A stretch of DNA of 47,559 nucleotides, taken from a virus. Taxonomy: Duplodnaviria > Caudoviricetes. Each line of letters opens with the position of its first letter. Within the stretch, counting starts at the first letter, position 1. Made by a program: the position numbers and the translations under genes. The stretch lies in the IMG/VR virus record IMGVR_UViG_3300037470_000196, positions 1 through 47,559 of that record. The stretch is one strand, 5' to 3'. Under the pieces are notes generated by a model. That model was not told where the DNA came from. It did no database searches and saw nothing but the letters and a program-made list of their open reading frames with translations. This document shows positions 3,717 to 20,756 of this stretch, piece after piece.

Positions 3717-4081
3717 TCTACCTTTTCTGTGCTGTAGGGTATTATTTTACTGCGAGATTTACGACGGCTGCCTGTCATCCATTCTTCGATCGGCGTATTT
3801 TTTAGCCAGCGCTCCATTGTAGGAATGAATCCCATGTCCTCCATGACGTGATCTTCGCCTAGGTCACGCACGCATATCTGTCGTCCTGAAGAGTTGGTGA
3901 TGTAGGTTCCGAATACGCGCTCCAGTATGAAGATGCCGAAAGCACTGTGCAGGATGGCTCGGTGTCGAATGTCCGGCAGTGCTGCTTTGCTGGAGTCAAA
4001 GAAGTCGTGAATCGCCTGATAGTCTTCAGGCTTCCCTCCCCACTTCTTGGCAGAATTACGAGCGTGTTGGAGGGGCTTCAT
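3713..4081 (-). CDS. DUF6915-like protein
   Basis: HARNSAKKWGG..EDYQAIHDFFDSSK...RHRAILHSAFGI...GEDHVMED motif set. Confidence 0.7.
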   Translation of the reverse strand: MKPLQHARNSAKKWGGKPEDYQAIHDFFDSSKAALPDIRHRAILHSAFGIFILERVFGTYITNSSGRQICVRDLGEDHVMEDMGFIPTMERWLKNTPIEEWMTGSRRKSRSKIIPYSTEKVD

Positions 4082-7000
4082 ATCTTCACCGTAACCTTGG
4101 TGATAGCACGTGTAATGGCGGTGTAAAGATGTTTACGCGAGTCGTTACCGAATTGTCGAGATTCGTCCAGCACTAGGACGTTGTCCCATTGTGATCCCTG
4201 GCTGTTGTAGCCGTCAAAGCCGTTTTGCAAGAAACGTCCTAAACTGGGGACTGTAACACACATGGAAGGGCCCGTCATGTGCTCAATGTTGACAATTTGG
4301 TCGTGATGAAAATCCAGCATCTCTGGACTTGCCAGTTCCCGTGAGGTGTATCCAGTCAAACGAGCGTTCCCGTCTTTTGTTAGAAAGACGTTGACCGGTA
4401 CACGTTTACGCATGTCGCTCATTGCCTGAGCGTTTGCCAGACGATTATTCTTCTCAAGGCTAACGAAACCTACTTTGTCTCTAAATACTTGAACCGACCG
4501 ACCCTGAATATGCACACGGCGGTAGCTGGCATATTGTTTAATGCAGGAAATAATGCCCTGTCGTAGCAGTAGCAGTTGTACTTGGCTGCACATATCGGGG
4601 CCTGCGTGAGATGTGAGTTCGACAGAGTGATCCCTCTTGCTAACGCTGCCGTCTTCAAACAGGCCACGTAAGAATTTAGCCTGAATCCCAACCGGAGACT
4701 GTAGTACAACTCGCGGCACACCTTTGGCTTTAGGTGATAGACCGCCGTGACATCGCAACCAGTCAGATATTTGCGTACTGTTGATTTCACATTTCCATGC
4801 TGGTGATATGTCATGTGGCAGGACAATAGTCTGCAAACCAAAGAGTGAATTAACTAGCTCCGAGAATCTGTCCACAACGCTTCGATATCGTTTTACCAGC
4901 CTAAATCCGCTGTTGTAGATACAGCCATCTGCTACCATTAACCCCAGAAACTCAGCAAAGTCTTCCGTCATTTCGGTTGGCAGTTGGTGTACCTTGGCTC
5001 TTACATCGGTGGGGACTGGCCCTAACATACTCGGCAGATAGTTAGCTTGTACCGAGTTGCCCAGTCGCAGCCGTAGAAACTGGTTTACCTCTAGTTGGCT
5101 TGCGCACACCGGCTGGTACATTTGACCAGTCCACGACATCAGTTTGTGATCCGGGGTGACTGTCACGCAGTAGCCATCGCGGGTTGTTATGCGCAGCATA
5201 GGACCTTCTGGGTAGGTATGTTTTTCAGTGAACTCACGCATTCCTTCCGCAGTTCCGATGTATCCTTTATCCTGAAGGGAATCTATTGTCCGCAGGCCGA
5301 ATTCCGTTTCCACGAAGGTTTCTGGTGCGACGCATTTATGCGTCGTCAGTACATATCCATAAGTGAATGATTCCGCCTCCCTGATATCGAACCCGATGGA
5401 TTTCTCCTCTTTCTGCAATTTGTCAACCCACGTCAGGTCATCCGGGCCCACTGGGTCCTCAGTGTGCCCGTACTGCCTGAAGTATTGAGCGTGTGCCAGG
5501 ACACTAATCGGAAATCCACCTTCCTCAGGCACAACGGTCAGACTGACCTTGCGACGGCTAAACTGGTGACACTTTTTAACGATCCACAGGGAGCCGTTCA
5601 GTAGCCCTTTCTCGTGGTTATTGCGCAGGCAGACCAGTTTCTCGCAGGGTTGTGGAAACTCGCCTGAGAAGCCACGGAGGGCCCGCATTCGGGCATTGTT
5701 GACATGACGGGTCTTGTTACGGCCGCACAGAATGATGTCGGCCTCTATCGCCAGTTCCGGTGTAATTTTATGAACTACTGCACAGTTACCGTATACACCT
5801 TCAGGGATTCGGCGGCCCTCTCGAGCCATCGTCGCCAGTGTCAGGATAGGGGACTCCTGGGCCTGCCTGTGAATCTGGGTCAGCCTGAAATCGGGCTCAC
5901 CTTTCATGAAGTACCCTTCACCAAATACCGGGGGCAGCTGGCCTGGGTCGCCGAGGACTAGGACGCGAGTGCCAAAGGACAGGAGGTCTTTGGCAAGATC
6001 GTCAGATACCATTGAGCAGTTGTGGACTAGGCATCCGTTAACAGAAAAGGAATGATGCCGTGTCGCTTCAATGTCATAGAGATAGAGTTTTCCGTCGGCA
6101 TCCCTGAATTGATCCAATTCAGGATTTCCTTGTTCCAGAAACTGAACACTGTCCACCCGTGTGAAATCAGGAATTTTTTCTTTCGGGCGTCGGCGGCCTG
6201 AATACTTTTGGAATGGTGGCTGCCGCCGTGCACTTCGATGCATATTTTCAGTGTCCGGTGTGCTACGTCCAGCTTGTAGCAATGCGGTAGACCTCCCGTA
6301 GTCACGACAAGTTCCGATTCCCAGTCGGGTCCGAGAGCGTGCAACATCTTCCTCTGTGGTTCGGTCAGACCACGACCGTTCCCGCCCTGAATTTTCGGTT
6401 TGTGCCCACTGGCCTTGTGTGCCTCGCTGATTTTCTTGCACACGTTCGGGTCTGACGTGGGGTTTAGCCTTCGTATGCGGTCTATCTGTGCCAATGCTTC
6501 CGGTGTCCCAGAGGCCAGAAATCGTTTTCGGGCAGCACCTGCTTTTGCATTTCGTTCTGGGGTATATATTTTCTCCTTGAACCCCGGTTGACGCATCCAC
6601 CAGCGCGTTGAGCAACCTGCTTTGCAGAAACGACGGGTCCAACTGGCTGAACTGGGAGTAAATACTGTCCCGCAGCAGTCGCACGCACGAGGTTGTCTGA
6701 GCGAGAAGGCTTCCAGGTCTAAGGTGCTTAGCGAGGACGTTTCCCCTGGAGGTAAAGAAGATATGATCTTCGCTACACGTGACTGTCTCTCCTCCAAAGG
6801 TAATCTGCACCCCCGAACTGGCTTCTTTTCTCGATGTTCCACTAATAGTGTCCGTTCCGTTACTGTTTAGGATTTTGTCACCAACACGCAACTGGCTAAT
6901 GGGTCGCGGCCCGGTTGGTGTGTCTATCATTGTGTTGCCGACGAAACATTCATCAATGACGACAAGGTCTGCTTCCCGTACAGGACTGTCCAGGTTCAGC

Positions 7001-7446
7001 CGGAATACCGGGGACTGTGCGCTGGCGTGTAGTTGGGCGATTTCTTCCCTCAGGCGTACTACTTCCGGATGGACGTCGGCGTAGTAAGCGTCTTCGTCAG
7101 TTCCGCCTTTCATCTCGGCTAGCAATTCGTCCAATTGCTTCTGCTTACCGTCCACCGTGCTTTTGCCGCCTTGCCCGCTGGCCAGGTAAATGAGGCGATG
7201 AATGGTGCTCGCGCCCACGCAGCCGCGCTGCTGCATGACCAGGGCAGCTTTGCCTGTGAATGCAGCGTACAAGACGTTGATGTCTAGGAGTTTGACGATG
7301 TGCGGTACTGTCGATGATTTGCCGGTACCCGCTACTCCCTCGATTCGGAAGACCTGTTTTCCGTTGGGATCGTTGTACCAGCGTATTACCTCATCGCAGC
7401 ACAGGGATTGTTCTTCCGTGAGTTCAATCACAGAAACAGGCTCCAT
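4078..7446 (-). CDS. SF1B RecD/Dda-like DNA helicase interrupted by two inteins (mature about 435 aa)
   Basis: GVAGTGKS Walker A, AFTGKAA, STIHRLIY, VIDE|CSMV, LGDPGQLPPV, HRQA, NNHEKGLLNG, YVLTTHK|SQGSQW, LYTAITRA. Confidence 0.95.
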   Translation of the reverse strand: MEPVSVIELTEEQSLCCDEVIRWYNDPNGKQVFRIEGVAGTGKSSTVPHIVKLLDINVLYAAFTGKAALVMQQRGCVGASTIHRLIYLASGQGGKSTVDGKQKQLDELLAEMKGGTDEDAYYADVHPEVVRLREEIAQLHASAQSPVFRLNLDSPVREADLVVIDECFVGNTMIDTPTGPRPISQLRVGDKILNSNGTDTISGTSRKEASSGVQITFGGETVTCSEDHIFFTSRGNVLAKHLRPGSLLAQTTSCVRLLRDSIYSQFSQLDPSFLQSRLLNALVDASTGVQGENIYPRTKCKSRCCPKTISGLWDTGSIGTDRPHTKAKPHVRPERVQENQRGTQGQWAQTENSGRERSWSDRTTEEDVARSRTRLGIGTCRDYGRSTALLQAGRSTPDTENMHRSARRQPPFQKYSGRRRPKEKIPDFTRVDSVQFLEQGNPELDQFRDADGKLYLYDIEATRHHSFSVNGCLVHNCSMVSDDLAKDLLSFGTRVLVLGDPGQLPPVFGEGYFMKGEPDFRLTQIHRQAQESPILTLATMAREGRRIPEGVYGNCAVVHKITPELAIEADIILCGRNKTRHVNNARMRALRGFSGEFPQPCEKLVCLRNNHEKGLLNGSLWIVKKCHQFSRRKVSLTVVPEEGGFPISVLAHAQYFRQYGHTEDPVGPDDLTWVDKLQKEEKSIGFDIREAESFTYGYVLTTHKCVAPETFVETEFGLRTIDSLQDKGYIGTAEGMREFTEKHTYPEGPMLRITTRDGYCVTVTPDHKLMSWTGQMYQPVCASQLEVNQFLRLRLGNSVQANYLPSMLGPVPTDVRAKVHQLPTEMTEDFAEFLGLMVADGCIYNSGFRLVKRYRSVVDRFSELVNSLFGLQTIVLPHDISPAWKCEINSTQISDWLRCHGGLSPKAKGVPRVVLQSPVGIQAKFLRGLFEDGSVSKRDHSVELTSHAGPDMCSQVQLLLLRQGIISCIKQYASYRRVHIQGRSVQVFRDKVGFVSLEKNNRLANAQAMSDMRKRVPVNVFLTKDGNARLTGYTSRELASPEMLDFHHDQIVNIEHMTGPSMCVTVPSLGRFLQNGFDGYNSQGSQWDNVLVLDESRQFGNDSRKHLYTAITRAITKVTVKI
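4204..5334 (-). mobile_element. Intein 2 of the helicase (377 aa) with in-frame LAGLIDADG endonuclease
   Basis: Starts CVAPET after THK; block B VTPDHK; FLGLMVADG and FLRGLFEDG; ends GYN followed by S of SQG. Confidence 0.92.
6019..6948 (-). mobile_element. Intein 1 of the helicase (310 aa), inserted in Walker B (DE|C)
   Basis: CFVGNTMI start, CSEDHIF block B, LYDIEA...HSFSVNGCLVHN then C+1. Confidence 0.93.
6027..6842 (-). CDS. Zn-finger + Vsr/DUF559-like (PD-(D/E)xK-related) endonuclease nested in the +1 frame of intein 1
   Basis: CDCC...FCKAGC, KKISEAHK (NUMOD3-like), YKLDVA...ICIEVHGGSH...DARKKKFLISHGWTVFSFWNKEI. Start codon uncertain. Confidence 0.85.
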   Translation of the reverse strand: MEHREKKPVRGCRLPLEERQSRVAKIISSLPPGETSSLSTLDLEAFSLRQPRACDCCGTVFTPSSASWTRRFCKAGCSTRWWMRQPGFKEKIYTPERNAKAGAARKRFLASGTPEALAQIDRIRRLNPTSDPNVCKKISEAHKASGHKPKIQGGNGRGLTEPQRKMLHALGPDWESELVVTTGGLPHCYKLDVAHRTLKICIEVHGGSHHSKSIQAADARKKKFLISHGWTVFSFWNKEILNWINSGMPTENSISMTLKRHGIIPFLLTDA

Positions 7447-7754
7447 ACGTATCCTATCAGCAGTGCCAGCGGATAGATAAAAAACGTTTTTGTTGCACTG
7501 GTCACTAGTGGTTTCACCCAGTCTGTTTTATCGGATGATTCTGGCTTACGGGTCAAGACGGCCGAATGCACATTAAGGAGTAGTAGGTTTACCACCAGTG
7601 CAACACCCACCGCTTGTACGTACCCGATGAGTGCAGTCCCGGCGAACACCGGCACGATAAACCAGGCCCATAGATGAGATAGAACAAGGCCCAACATGAG
7701 GGCCTCCAGAATGCCGAGTGCCAAACCTGCGATCATTTTCAGTAGTGTTTTCAT
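7428..7754 (-). CDS. Membrane protein (about 3 TM)
   Basis: Three long hydrophobic stretches; LWAWFIVPVF motif. Confidence 0.8.
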   Translation of the reverse strand: MKTLLKMIAGLALGILEALMLGLVLSHLWAWFIVPVFAGTALIGYVQAVGVALVVNLLLLNVHSAVLTRKPESSDKTDWVKPLVTSATKTFFIYPLALLIGYVWSLFL

Positions 7755-7767
7755 TGTATTCCCTTTT

Positions 7768-8979
7768 CTATCCCTTAACGCACAATACTGCGCTCAGGGT
7801 GTGTCTGATGTCAACTAAATCCTCTTGGCTTCTCATTACCGCGTCGATGTCCTTGTAGGCACCCGGAGTTTCGTCTAGCACACCTTCGTCTTTGCGGCAC
7901 TCCACACCCAAGGTGGCCCGGGCGTGGTCTTCCAGGGTGAAGGTTTTCTTGGCCTGTGTCCGTGACATCAAACGACCAGCGCCGTGTGAGCACGACATGA
8001 AGCTTTCGCGGTTACCTTTGCCCTGGACAATGTACGAACGCTTTCCCATGGCACCCGGGATGATGCCCCACATGCCGTCATCCGCGCGCAGTGCTCCCTT
8101 ACGTGTAACGATTACGTCGGACCCGAAGTGCCGTTCCCACGACACGTAGTTATGGTGGCAGTTCACAGCCTGGGCCTGAACTATGACAGGTTTTACGTGG
8201 TGCTCTAGCGTGTTCAGCGTGCGAGCCATCATGATTTCACGGTTAACAAGAGCATACTGCTGTGCCCATCGCACAGCCTGAACATAGTCACCGAAGTATT
8301 CGGATCCTTCCGGCAAGTACGCTAGGTTATAATCCGGCAAGTTGATGTGCCAGCGCTCCATCTCCTCTTTGGCCTTGGAGATGAAGTAACTACCGATGCG
8401 ATTACCTACGCCACGAGATCCGCTGTGCAGCATAACCCATACTGCGTCAGACTCGTCAAGACACACCTCTATGAAGTGGTTCCCCGTGCCCAGGGTGCCA
8501 AGATGTACTGCGGTGTTGCATCCACGCAACTTAGGGTGGTCTGCACACAGCAAGTCGAACTTGTCCTGCATGAGCGACCAGGGGGCTGCCACGTCCTTGG
8601 GTACTTCACTCCCCCAGGCGCCTTGATCCCCAGGTCCGCCGTTGCTGGTTCGTCCGTGAGGTACGGCGGCTTCGATGTCAGAGCGTAAGGTGGACAGTGA
8701 ATCCGGTAGGTCTTCTGCGCGTAGGTTGGTCTTTACTGCGCCCATTCCGCAGCCCAAGTCCACCCCGACGGCAGCTGGAATTATCACGTGTTTGGTGGCA
8801 ATGACACTTCCTACACAAGCCCCGTTTCCCCAATGTCCGTCGGGCATACAAGCGACATGCTTGTGAATGAACGGCAGTTGGCTCACGTTTTTCAATTGCT
8901 GCATAGCCGTATCCTCCAACGGCGGTACGTGATCGGTCCACAACTTAATGCGGTTGCCGTTTTCCGTTATGGCTTTCAT
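7768..8979 (-). CDS. rtcB: RtcB family RNA ligase
   Basis: MPDGH, VGVDLGCG, GTLGTGNHFIE, HSGSRG, CHHN, RKGA, SCSHGAGR, DETPGAYK, C-terminal VKG. Confidence 0.97.
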   Translation of the reverse strand: MKAITENGNRIKLWTDHVPPLEDTAMQQLKNVSQLPFIHKHVACMPDGHWGNGACVGSVIATKHVIIPAAVGVDLGCGMGAVKTNLRAEDLPDSLSTLRSDIEAAVPHGRTSNGGPGDQGAWGSEVPKDVAAPWSLMQDKFDLLCADHPKLRGCNTAVHLGTLGTGNHFIEVCLDESDAVWVMLHSGSRGVGNRIGSYFISKAKEEMERWHINLPDYNLAYLPEGSEYFGDYVQAVRWAQQYALVNREIMMARTLNTLEHHVKPVIVQAQAVNCHHNYVSWERHFGSDVIVTRKGALRADDGMWGIIPGAMGKRSYIVQGKGNRESFMSCSHGAGRLMSRTQAKKTFTLEDHARATLGVECRKDEGVLDETPGAYKDIDAVMRSQEDLVDIRHTLSAVLCVKG

Positions 8980-12981: not shown

Positions 12982-13380
12982 TTATCCTATTGTGAGCAGT
13001 GCGGGGTTCAGCACGCCTCCGGATTCGTTAGCGCGTTTGCCTTCGTCTGATAGTTGCGTGTCTAGGTTGTGACACTGCCGTAGTTCTTCTCCATGTTCCC
13101 ACACGTGCGCCAGGATGCTTACGGCACATCCGTACATGAAACCCGTGATTCCGTTCGTGTCTGCCTGGCGGGAGGTTTCATTCGCCACATCCGCAACACT
13201 ACTGTCGGTGCAAAGTCGTGCTTCCATTAAACTGGCCCAGTCAGCCGCGTATGTGAAGCAACGTCGTCCGTATGGGTCGTATGTGAAGCAACGTCGTCCG
13301 TATGGGTCGGTATTGTTTTCTAGGTCCTTTTGCCAGTCTGCGAGTCTAGAGGGTTTAATACTGAAGTGTTTATGTTCCAT
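12982..13380 (-). CDS. Hypothetical phage protein with a 10-aa tandem duplication
   Basis: GITGFMYGCAV...W.HGEELR...GGVLNPA; DPYGRRCFTY occurs twice. Confidence 0.75.
   Translation of the reverse strand: MEHKHFSIKPSRLADWQKDLENNTDPYGRRCFTYDPYGRRCFTYAADWASLMEARLCTDSSVADVANETSRQADTNGITGFMYGCAVSILAHVWEHGEELRQCHNLDTQLSDEGKRANESGGVLNPALLTIG
13249..13308. repeat. Perfect 30-bp tandem duplication
   Basis: gtatgtgaagcaacgtcgtccgtatgggtc x2. Confidence 0.95.
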
Positions 13381-19467: not shown

Positions 19468-20756
19468 TCAAAATACTAGACCACGGGTACGTAAAACTGA
19501 TCGAAACCTGGGGCTCTGACGAGCGGGTTATTGAGGCTGCCAGGATGTCTACAGGTAAAGGGTTTCTTGGTTGGGGCACACCGGAACAACCGGGGGATGA
19601 AAAGCTGTTGGCGTATCTGTACAACAACTCGCACTACACCCCATTTGAGATGGCAGGCATGATTATCGAGGTGAAGGCTCCGATCCTAGTTTATCGAGAA
19701 TGGCATCGACATAGAACGCAGTGCCTTTCTGGCGACACCAAAATAACCTTAGTGACAAACACGTCTAGTGCGGTGACATACAAAAGAACCATCAAGCAGA
19801 TTTTTGACTTACGGCACGGAGGGGTAGAGGATCGCGAACCCGCCCCGCACAGAAACGGATACTCCAAAGCAGGAACTCCGGTAACTAGACCAGCTCGACG
19901 CAAGGTACCGTGGCGTACGCGAGTGCTACCTAACTGTCAAACTCGTCTGCTGAGGGTCCTAAATGAGGAAACGGGAGAATTCACAATCGCCCGCATGAAA
20001 GAAGTCTGGAAATCAGGGGTGAAGGACATCTACTCCCTCAATGTGGGCCGTATGGTGATTAACGCTAGTGCGCTGCACCCTTTTCTTACGGAACGAGGGT
20101 GGGTGCAGATGAAAGATATTGTTATCGGCGACCGTGTAGCCCGAATGGGCAAAGTCGTAAGCCAAGAGCGGGCCATACCGCCGTCTCTACGACAAGGCAT
20201 CGTTCGTTGGGAAACGGTGACTACATTGCCTATGTATGTGGGGCAAGAGATGACTTACGACATTGAGGTAGAGGGGCCTCATCACAACTACGTGGCTAAC
20301 GACATAGTCGTCCATAATAGCTACAATGAAATGTCAGCTCGTTACACTCCACTGCCAGATGAGAACTATATGCCCACCGTCGAACGGTTGATGCGCAACG
20401 CTGGTGGCACTAACAAGCAGGCGGGAACCGTGAAGGGGTCTGAGGAGATGACCCGCGGCAATGCCACGACGTTTCAACACAAGTTGCGCGAACAGTACCG
20501 ACAAGCCCAGGACGTGTATGAATGGGCGCTGAAGGTGGGCGTTCCCAAGGAACTGGCGCGAGTCCACCTACCCGTGGCTCGTTACTCACGAATGCGTGCA
20601 GGTGCTAGTTTGCGCAACTGGTTGGCATTTCTAACATTGCGCGATGCTCCCTCCGCACAGTGGGAAATACAACAGTACGCAAAAGCTGTGTCGTCGTTGA
20701 TTGCAGAGAATTTCCCTCGCACACATTCTCTGTACGTAACTCAAAGATCATCTTGA
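19464..20756 (+). CDS. thyX: FAD-dependent thymidylate synthase with intein
   Basis: EAARMS, HYTPFE, REWHRHRTQ|SYNEMSARY, PKELARVHLP, RNWLAFLTLR, AQWEI. Confidence 0.96.
   Translation: MIKILDHGYVKLIETWGSDERVIEAARMSTGKGFLGWGTPEQPGDEKLLAYLYNNSHYTPFEMAGMIIEVKAPILVYREWHRHRTQCLSGDTKITLVTNTSSAVTYKRTIKQIFDLRHGGVEDREPAPHRNGYSKAGTPVTRPARRKVPWRTRVLPNCQTRLLRVLNEETGEFTIARMKEVWKSGVKDIYSLNVGRMVINASALHPFLTERGWVQMKDIVIGDRVARMGKVVSQERAIPPSLRQGIVRWETVTTLPMYVGQEMTYDIEVEGPHHNYVANDIVVHNSYNEMSARYTPLPDENYMPTVERLMRNAGGTNKQAGTVKGSEEMTRGNATTFQHKLREQYRQAQDVYEWALKVGVPKELARVHLPVARYSRMRAGASLRNWLAFLTLRDAPSAQWEIQQYAKAVSSLIAENFPRTHSLYVTQRSS
19722..20318 (+). mobile_element. ThyX mini-intein (199 aa, no recognisable endonuclease)
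   Basis: CLSGDT start, SALHPFLT block B, TYDIEV...HNYVANDIVVHN then S+1. Confidence 0.92.

What the first reader, a model, noticed from the sequence alone, without database searches (positions are those of the whole stretch)
6019..6948. Dual-coded intein: its endonuclease is overprinted in the +1 reading frame
Seen: the 310-aa intein has intact splicing blocks, but its central region in the helicase frame is featureless R/G/Q/S/T-rich sequence. The +1 frame on the same strand is open for 271 codons (6842-6027, stopping 8 nt before the intein end). It encodes a coherent CxxC...CxxxC Zn finger, a NUMOD3-like helix and a Vsr/DUF559-type nuclease (LDVA...IEVHGGSH...D..K...L...GWTVF.F.N.EI). Both frames are stop-free over more than 800 nt, including over blocks B and F. 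Established: intein homing endonucleases are normally in frame and released by splicing, as in intein 2 of this gene. Inference: a mobile-element architecture in which the nuclease is made separately (internal GTG start or +1 frameshift), uncoupling its dose from host-gene expression, with the intein frame kept open as a linker. A sequencing frameshift is unlikely because the helicase frame is uninterrupted and the nuclease frame has its own stop.
Basis: partly seen in the sequence, partly recalled or inferred. Interest (0 to 1): 0.88.

Follow-up and report, generated by a model that had tools for sequence, protein, structure and literature searches.

The report
Helicase intein hiding +1-frame nuclease gene
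A phage helicase gene carries a likely self-splicing protein insert (intein) whose middle also encodes, one base out of step, a separate predicted DNA-cutting enzyme that likely spreads the insert; the same layout recurs in over 150 distinct phage and microbial sequences, but out-of-frame intein nucleases of other types are already described.

Summary
Confirmed. The 310-aa intein (6948-6019, minus strand) sits at DE|C of a Dda-like helicase. Its +1 frame is open from 6866 to 6027 and encodes a zinc-finger/DUF559 protein (Pfam E 9e-9) with a predicted Vsr fold (Z 9-10.5). This is no sequencing slip: 87 of 90, 56 of the 59 best and 77 of 80 loci in three sets of nuclease relatives have the same +1 layout. 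The 191 complete cases form 154 clusters, in SF2 helicases, clamp loaders and Dda helicases, nearly always at motif II. Selection acts on the nuclease frame (dN/dS 0.04-0.39); the intein frame stays stop-free (0 of 49 at-risk codons, 14 stops expected). Relatives have Shine-Dalgarno-led starts, so internal initiation is likelier than frameshifting; here TTG 6797 or GTG 6842. Vibrio phages show full, mini and empty alleles and a recent transfer (intein 95.8% identical, exteins 78%). Expression, cleavage and splicing are untested. Out-of-frame intein nucleases are in print (Gosselin 2025; Phillips 2026); this sense +1 Vsr-like family did not turn up in my 8 searches. The scan noted it before in at least 9 genomes. 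Verdict: new variant of a known kind.

The parts
4078..7446 (-). Host gene: Dda/RecD-like helicase with two inteins (1122 aa precursor, 435 aa of extein)
   Evidence: nearest annotated intein-free relatives are called Dda-like or RecD-like helicase
6019..6948 (-). Intein 1, 310 aa, inserted at helicase motif II VVIDE|CSMV; Cys1, ends His-Asn, Cys at +1
   Evidence: empty alleles read DE|CSMV in Pam3 and RHph_I65
6745..6786 (-). Intein block B region (TVTCSEDHIFFTSR), overlapped by the leader of the +1 gene
   Evidence: sequence, family alignment; block name recalled
6019..6084 (-). Intein blocks F and G (YLYDIEATRHHSFS, VNGCLVHN), overlapped by the tail and stop of the +1 gene
   Evidence: the 90-nt bin 6138-6049 is the least variable in all three codon phases; block names recalled
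6027..6866 (-). +1 open frame, stop to stop (279 codons plus TAG 6029-6027): the overprinted nuclease gene
6840..6842 (-). Candidate start GTG (271 aa product); weak anti-SD pairing, -4.1 kcal/mol; 53 codons before CxxC, beside the family's 54-56 start site
6795..6814 (-). Candidate start TTG 6797-6795 with GGGGGT at 6814-6809 (-9.7 kcal/mol, 11-nt spacing; 256 aa product); 38 codons before CxxC, where relative L017 has an ATG
6612..6683 (-). CxxC...FCxxxC putative zinc finger (C54, C57, C73, C77)
   Evidence: each Cys in 111-115 of 117 family members; only weak TRASH-type matches
6375..6386 (-). GGNG family motif before the nuclease core
   Evidence: G154 and G156 in 117 of 117
6108..6356 (-). 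Vsr/DUF559 nuclease core: Q163, D192, E203, H205, H209, D218, GW229-230, S234
4204..5334 (-). Intein 2, 377 aa, with in-frame LAGLIDADG domain (ordinary layout; internal contrast)

Best explanation
This is a likely self-splicing intein that carries a second gene in the +1 frame, predicted to be a Vsr-like homing endonuclease and likely translated from its own internal start. Shown: two overlapping open frames, a nuclease-like sequence and predicted fold, frame-specific selection, and the same layout across a large family. Inferred steps: (1) ribosomes in the helicase frame read through the nuclease DNA as a filler linker, and the intein splices out to give intact helicase; (2) other ribosomes start inside the intein, here at TTG 6797 or GTG 6842, and make a free zinc-finger/Vsr-like nuclease of 256-271 aa; (3) it cuts intein-free helicase alleles near the motif II codons (DE|C), and repair copies the whole intein in; (4) the layout is cheap to keep because an intein-frame stop arises only where a nuclease codon ends in T before a codon starting AA, AG or GA, and T-to-C at that position is always silent for the nuclease.
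For: Nuclease: DUF559 E 9e-9; AlphaFold model pLDDT 84.8; best fold matches 3hrl Z 10.5 (rmsd 2.3, 85 aligned), I-Bth0305I 3r3p Z 9.3 (2.9, 89), Vsr 1cw0 Z 9.0 (2.6, 96); D192 and H209 in 117 of 117, D218 in 116 of 117. Layout: +1 inside an intein in 87 of 90 loci, 56 of the 59 best-scoring genome loci; host frame open in 77 of 80 metagenome loci; none in the third frame or antisense. The scans used nuclease peptides only. Selection: dN/dS 0.04-0.39 in the +1 frame for 19 of 20 pairs (one saturated), above 1 in the intein frame for 19 of 20; this copy against its nearest relatives, uncorrected pN/pS 0.42-0.43 versus 1.39-1.51; the most variable codon position switches from the intein's third to the nuclease's third at about 6678 and back at about 6138. 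Open host frame is selected: 0 of 49 at-risk codons end in T, 14.3 expected, P about 5e-8; free relatives L025, L076, L088 have 14, 8 and 30 stops. Initiation: +1 ATGs before the zinc finger pair better with the anti-SD than three control sets (41% at -5 kcal/mol or better, against 8-14%; p 2e-5 to 3e-4; 69 of 75 loci used); 39 of 48 long-leader genes have such a start 43-45 or 54-56 codons before CxxC. Mobility in relatives: L008 vs L009 intein 95.8%, exteins 78%; full, mini and empty alleles at one site; phi673 has the intein, phi674 lacks it (PMC6132909, passage). This copy's two odd residues are a coupled pair: D/R in 164, H/S in 2 (this one and distant L246), E/R in 2 of 168.
Against: No expression, cleavage or splicing data. 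This copy is one of 9 of 48 without a strong start at the family's usual positions and has no ATG before the zinc finger; the TTG spacing is long and its SD lies in a predicted stem. H205 and S234 depart from near-invariant D and R. The Glu of the EDxHD motif appears to be Gln in 100 of 117. The SD and ATG overlap intein codons (R-R-E-V, Y-A, D-H-V), so part of their conservation may be a by-product of the intein protein; the start bins were chosen after seeing the data, and loci are related. The leader over block B shows intein-frame, not nuclease-frame, selection. One pair (L045/L051) shows a weak contrast, 0.39 against 0.55. Foldseek alone gave no match at E 0.001 or better. No close empty allele of this very helicase was found (best 48% protein identity).
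Confidence: 0.82

Rival explanations
1. The family is real, but this copy's nuclease is weakened or no longer made: an early stage of decay towards a mini-intein.
For: No ATG and no strong start at the usual positions; H205 and S234 differ from D and R; decayed and mini forms exist in the family (L148, L188, L241; L177).
Against: The ORF is full length, with D192, H209, D218 and all four Cys intact; pN/pS 0.42-0.43 against nearest relatives; the H/S pair recurs in distant L246 and no H/R or D/S was seen among 168; Vsr has His and I-Bth0305I has Asn at the matching position (PMC3239194, section 17).
Confidence: 0.1
2. The nuclease is made by a programmed +1 ribosomal frameshift, as a helicase-N/intein-N/nuclease fusion.
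For: The +1 frame always opens after the intein start (22 nt or more; median 160), so a shift window exists; this copy's starts are imperfect; one locus of 69 had no start codon before the zinc finger.
Against: No shared slippery word in the window: the commonest 6-mers are in at most 52 of 153 loci and look like block B codons. SD-led ATGs are enriched; in several loci the frame opens only 1-2 codons before such an ATG (L007, L029, L083).
Confidence: 0.05
3. The +1 protein is expressed but does something other than homing, such as mismatch nicking or cutting competitor phage DNA.
For: The fold is as close to Vsr and DUF559 proteins as to I-Bth0305I; free-standing relatives exist; no DNA target bias beyond the protein motif was seen around the insertion site.
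Against: It sits in an intein at one conserved site in nearly all loci; the intein moves between diverged hosts; two free relatives lie directly upstream of helicase genes (L088, whose helicase reads DEIH without an intein; L125), as expected of free-standing homing enzymes.
Confidence: 0.03
4. Sequencing or assembly artefact: paired indels moved an in-frame nuclease out of frame.
For: In-frame forms of the same nuclease subfamily exist in inteins at DE|C of UvrD helicases (P0165, P0166).
Against: Same phase in 191 complete loci, including 8 of 8 cultured phage genomes fetched; the +1 frame has its own stop and overlaps both splicing blocks; the source contig agrees.
Confidence: 0.005

Closest known systems
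Cyanobacterial dnaX intein with out-of-frame LAGLIDADG (Phillips, DeSimone, Gogarten; bioRxiv 10.64898/2026.09.14.751524; whole text read; credits Gorbalenya 1998, which I did not see)
   Same: Contiguous intein; same-strand overlapping endonuclease ORF ('+2 ORF'); low dN/dS in that frame; SD motifs upstream; full, mini and empty alleles coexist.
   Different: LAGLIDADG in one host gene there; here a zinc-finger/Vsr-like nuclease across SF2 helicases, clamp loaders and Dda-like helicases, mostly in phage contigs. They call the layout rare.
Non-canonical actinobacteriophage inteins (Gosselin, Arsenault, Gogarten; bioRxiv 10.1101/2025.01.02.630785; abstract, passages, sections 8 and 15 read; supplements not seen)
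   Same: Endonuclease in a separate frame inside a full intein; includes Vsr-like/EDxHD-like enzymes; proposes invasion by a free-standing gene and a later shift into frame.
   Different: Their Vsr-like cases are antisense and their sense case is endonuclease VII in frame 3; hosts are polymerase, minor capsid, terminase and thymidylate synthase, not helicases; their second ORFs typically lie outside the splicing domain, while here they overlap blocks B and F.
[quoted passage not shown] 2009, PMC2677866; passages read)
   Same: Same-strand Vsr-like gene between intein halves, with its 3' end overlapping the C-terminal intein part.
   Different: There the host gene is broken in two and the nuclease gene has a 5' non-coding gap with hairpins; here the host frame is continuous and no conserved hairpin was found.
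EDxHD homing endonuclease I-Bth0305I (Taylor et al. 2011, PMC3239194; passages and section 17 read)
   Same: Vsr-type catalytic fold (Z 9.3) with Asp, His and Asp in the matching order; N-terminal DNA-binding region.
   Different: Intron-encoded, with NUMOD2 repeats; here intein-encoded, with a CxxC/CxxxC finger and GGNG motif, and probably Gln for the first Glu.
ShiLan insertion with hidden HNH (Arsenault et al. 2025, PMC11855218; abstract and section 4.3 read)
   Same: Out-of-frame endonuclease with its own start and stop under an open host frame.
   Different: No splicing domain; HNH; phage methylase host.

Membership tests
Intein (standard cis-splicing type) | Cys1, block B His, block F Asp, terminal His-Asn, Cys/Ser/Thr at +1 | tested here: met
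   C1, SEDH (Ser for the usual Thr), YDIE, HN|C; Hint_2 E 2e-6, Intein_splicing E 2e-4, below its curated cut-off; block labels recalled
Intein (standard cis-splicing type) | In-frame insertion at a site that is contiguous in homologues | tested here: met
   DE|CSMV is uninterrupted in Pam3 and RHph_I65; 4 of 4 fetched relatives are empty at this site
Intein (standard cis-splicing type) | Protein splicing activity | not testable with these tools
   needs expression
Canonical full intein | Endonuclease in frame between blocks B and F | tested here: not met
   no nuclease family matches the intein frame; DUF559 only in +1
Non-canonical intein with out-of-frame endonuclease | Separate endonuclease ORF overlapping an open intein frame | tested here: met
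Non-canonical intein with out-of-frame endonuclease | Purifying selection on the endonuclease frame | tested here: met
Non-canonical intein with out-of-frame endonuclease | Own translation signals | tested here: inconclusive
   supported for the family; two imperfect candidates in this copy
Non-canonical intein with out-of-frame endonuclease | Lateral spread as one unit | tested here: met
   shown in Vibrio phage relatives, not for this copy; splicing-domain and nuclease distances correlate weakly (rho 0.19, 0 of 500 permutations, 108 loci)
EDxHD homing endonuclease | Vsr-like catalytic fold | tested here: met
   3r3p Z 9.3, rmsd 2.9, 89 aligned; profile match to 3r3p E 0.001
EDxHD homing endonuclease | Catalytic Asp, His, Asp (D196, H213, D222) | tested here: met
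   D192, H209, D218 by order and spacing, 116-117 of 117
EDxHD homing endonuclease | First Glu (E170) | tested here: inconclusive
   register of the aligned ranges points to Q163 (Gln 100, Glu 14 of 117); no residue-level superposition was seen
EDxHD homing endonuclease | N-terminal NUMOD2 repeats | tested here: inconclusive
   no NUMOD family in Pfam at E up to 1; a four-Cys finger is there instead; NUMOD2 itself was not scanned
EDxHD homing endonuclease | Cleavage of the empty allele next to the insertion site | not testable with these tools
   needs an assay
Fractured gene with split intein (Dassa 2009) | Host gene broken into two ORFs around the nuclease | tested here: not met
   helicase frame continuous

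The most novel reading that the evidence does not exclude
One old dual-coded intein lineage, invisible to gene calling, has colonised the Walker B/motif II codons of unrelated ATPase families (SF2 and SNF2 helicases, SF1 Dda helicases, AAA+ clamp loaders). It makes its nuclease from its own ribosome-binding site or, in some lineages, from its own leaderless promoter inside the intein. Out-of-frame homing would then be a common mode in phages, many long 'endonuclease-less' inteins would still be mobile, and free-standing, overprinted and in-frame forms of one nuclease subfamily would give the steps by which inteins gain nucleases.
Probability: 0.55. Interest if true: 0.65.

Novelty: new variant of a known kind. 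Interest (0 to 1): 0.48.

Why it matters
Two recent preprints call out-of-frame intein endonucleases rare. This family alone gives 154 clusters at 90% identity from capped scans, including cultured phages; none of the 8 GenBank regions fetched annotates the second gene. It shows that intein surveys that read one frame will undercount mobile inteins. It supplies free-standing, overprinted, decayed, mini and in-frame states of one nuclease, which bears on how inteins acquire homing endonucleases. It is directly testable with the phi673 (intein) and phi674 (no intein) pair in Corynebacterium glutamicum. It also points to an uncharacterised zinc-finger/Vsr-like nuclease family.

Tried and rejected
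No RNA holder was listed for this DNA; no evidence either way. A single-sequence AlphaFold run of the intein frame gave pLDDT 36 throughout, splicing domain included, so it says nothing on linker disorder. Foldseek gave no match at E 0.001 or better; 3r3p ranked 4th at E 0.048. No sigma-70-type promoter in 5900-7800 (0 found, 1.1 expected). A conserved RBS-hiding hairpin was rejected: mean z 0.02 over 113 loci; this copy z -0.8. No DNA target consensus beyond the protein motif: GAT 64/GAC 44, GAG 57/GAA 51 among 108 sites. A viral-contig scan with the C-extein found no relative. The short-core nuclease tree placed this copy on a long branch away from its BLAST neighbours and was set aside; the longer alignment groups it with L179 and L180 (support 0.99). 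The word-index search with the intein frame found 1 protein, and tblastn of it found only 7 weak phage hits, while the full phmmer search found 1075 at E 0.001 or better; those proteins have no DNA here, so their second frame is unchecked. The ThyX intein and intein 2 were checked for hidden sense ORFs; longest open stretches 65 and 127 codons. Literature searches found no paper on a sense +1 Vsr-like nuclease in helicase inteins; subscription papers, Gorbalenya 1998 and bioRxiv supplements were not seen and could hold such cases.

Full report
Observation. The window looks like a tailed-phage genome fragment (a virus record of 47,559 bases). On the minus strand, 7446-4078 is one open frame of 1122 aa with helicase and intein matches; its nearest annotated relatives are Dda- or RecD-like helicases. 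Intein 1 (6948-6019) begins with Cys after VVIDE and ends His-Asn before Cys. Four of four fetched relatives lack an insert at this site, two reading DE|CSMV exactly. The +1 frame is open from 6866 to a TAG at 6029-6027 and matches DUF559 at E 9e-9; the third frame has 16 stops.

The +1 product. An AlphaFold model built on a 23-sequence alignment has mean pLDDT 84.8. Its C-terminal domain matches 3hrl (Z 10.5), the homing endonuclease I-Bth0305I (Z 9.3), a mitoribosomal chain (Z 9.3) and Vsr (Z 9.0); Foldseek alone gave nothing at E 0.001 or better. D192, H209 and D218 follow the order of the catalytic D196, H213 and D222 of I-Bth0305I (PMC3239194, section 17) and are kept in 116-117 of 117 family members; the first Glu appears to be Gln in 100 of 117. 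This copy is the only one of those 117 with His for Asp at 205 and Ser for Arg at 234. In the larger set the two sites change together: 164 D/R, 2 H/S, 2 E/R of 168, the second H/S being L246, which is far away on the tree. I read that as a compensated pair, not decay. It works like an EDxHD enzyme; I do not file it as a strict member.

The family. Scans used nuclease peptides only, so they did not select for inteins, though they rank by likeness to this protein and keep the best 80 (of 199, 383 and 447). Of 90 loci (this one, L001, 8 of 40 GenBank phage hits, 80 viral contigs), 87 have the nuclease in +1 under an open intein frame and 3 are free-standing. Of the 59 best genome loci, 56 are +1 inteins, one more has an open host frame with an intein C-end, and two are free or decayed; the 21 weakest hits are distant free DUF559 genes. 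Of 80 metagenome loci, 77 keep the host frame open. None had the nuclease in frame, in the third frame or antisense. The collections overlap: 191 complete cases give 154 clusters at 90% and 134 at 70% nuclease identity. 108 of 117 representatives sit at DE|C or DE|S; most others lie one or two residues on, and two boundaries were mis-called by my script. Pfam on 87 of 117 C-exteins shows mostly SF2 helicases, with SNF2, clamp-loader (DnaX-like), AAA_34 and, for this one, AAA_30; 12 had no match. The nearest relatives, L179-L181, sit in the same kind of helicase (L179 and L180 read DE|CSMV), and this small group lies inside a clade whose other members mostly read DE|SS (support 0.92), which suggests a host switch; I did not run a formal test. 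A search of longer proteins found two in-frame forms at DE|C of UvrD helicases.

Selection. Over the central overlap, dN/dS is 0.04-0.39 in the nuclease frame (19 of 20 pairs; one saturated) and above 1 in the intein frame (19 of 20). Across 20 close sequences, the most variable codon position is the intein's third up to about 6678, the nuclease's third from there to about 6138, and the bin over block F is the least variable in all phases. So the leader over block B follows the intein, the centre follows the nuclease, and the tail is doubly constrained. The host frame is actively kept open: 0 of 49 at-risk codons end in T where 14.3 are expected, while free relatives carry 8-30 stops. L025 is a free copy that still shows a decayed intein C-end in that frame, and the 150-aa mini-intein of phage K459 has a +1 frame full of stops. 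By the genetic code, every such stop can be removed silently for the nuclease, which explains why this overlap is cheap.

Expression (inferred). ATGs in +1 before the zinc finger pair with the anti-SD better than ATGs in the core or in the other two frames (41% against 8-14% at -5 kcal/mol or better; 6 of 75 loci lacked my anchor motif and were dropped). 39 of 48 long-leader genes have such a start at one of two positions; this copy is among the 9 that do not, and offers GTG 6842 (-4.1) or TTG 6797 (-9.7). In loci with weak SD, a TAnnnT word lies 5-9 nt before 13 of 58 starts, against 34 of 664 in the core and 8 of 158 in strong-SD loci. That suggests leaderless transcripts from an internal promoter, but I noticed the pattern in the same loci before testing it, and this copy does not show it. 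No shared slippery word or hairpin was found. Caveat: the signals overlap intein codons and the loci are related.

Mobility. Vibrio phages L008 and L009 share 95.8% DNA identity in the intein and 78% in both exteins; three close relatives are empty and one has a mini-intein at the same site. phi673 has the intein and phi674 does not; that paper notes the intein only (PMC6132909, one passage). Homing itself is untested, and no close empty allele of this window's helicase was found.

Comparison and verdict. Inteins with endonucleases in another frame are in print: antisense Vsr-like, antisense LAGLIDADG and sense frame-3 endonuclease VII (Gosselin et al.), and the sense out-of-frame LAGLIDADG of cyanobacterial dnaX with the same dN/dS argument (Phillips et al.). 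Split-intein loci with Vsr-like genes (Dassa 2009) are the broken counterpart. Eight searches found no report of the sense +1 Vsr-like family at motif II; bioRxiv supplements and subscription papers were out of reach. Earlier agents of this scan noted the same layout in at least 9 genomes; I had reached my reading and found the papers before that look-up. It is a new variant of a known kind: the size and host range of the family are the new part. Interest 0.48.

Noticed in passing
window 19722-20318 (+): A third intein: 199-aa insert in the ThyX gene at RTQ|S, without a nuclease match; no long ORF in any other frame.
   Followed up: partly
window 5334-4204 (-): Intein 2 ends Tyr-Asn rather than His-Asn and carries an in-frame LAGLIDADG; its +1 frame has one open stretch of 127 codons, not examined.
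   Followed up: partly
L025 2399-3238: Free nuclease gene of this clade with a decayed intein C-terminus in the overlapping frame (14 stops): looks like an escapee from an intein.
   Followed up: partly
L088 2288-2917 and L125 2315-2956: Free-standing relatives directly upstream of helicase genes; in L088 motif II reads DEIH with no intein.
   Followed up: partly
P0165, P0166: The same nuclease subfamily in frame inside inteins at DE|C of UvrD helicases.
   Followed up: partly
L003, L030, L037, L041, L110, just before the +1 ATG: TAnnnT words with a nearby TG 6-8 nt before the start and weak or no SD: possible leaderless promoters inside the intein.
   Followed up: partly
L177 (Vibrio phage K459 helicase): 150-aa mini-intein at the same QDE|CHH site as the full dual-coded intein.
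   Followed up: yes
L188 and L241: L188 has a single TGA in the intein frame under an intact nuclease; L241 has several frameshifts. Errors, decay or a step towards a split intein.
   Followed up: no
window 13248-13309: Exact 30-bp tandem duplication inside a 132-aa ORF (YDPYGRRCFT repeated).
   Followed up: no
window 7768-8979 (-): RtcB RNA ligase gene (Pfam E 8e-126) two genes upstream of the helicase.
   Followed up: no
L001, L061, L063-L065, L134, L141, L147, L149: DnaX-like clamp-loader genes carry this Vsr-type +1 intein, whereas the published cyanobacterial dnaX intein hides a LAGLIDADG; whether the sites coincide was not checked.
   Followed up: no
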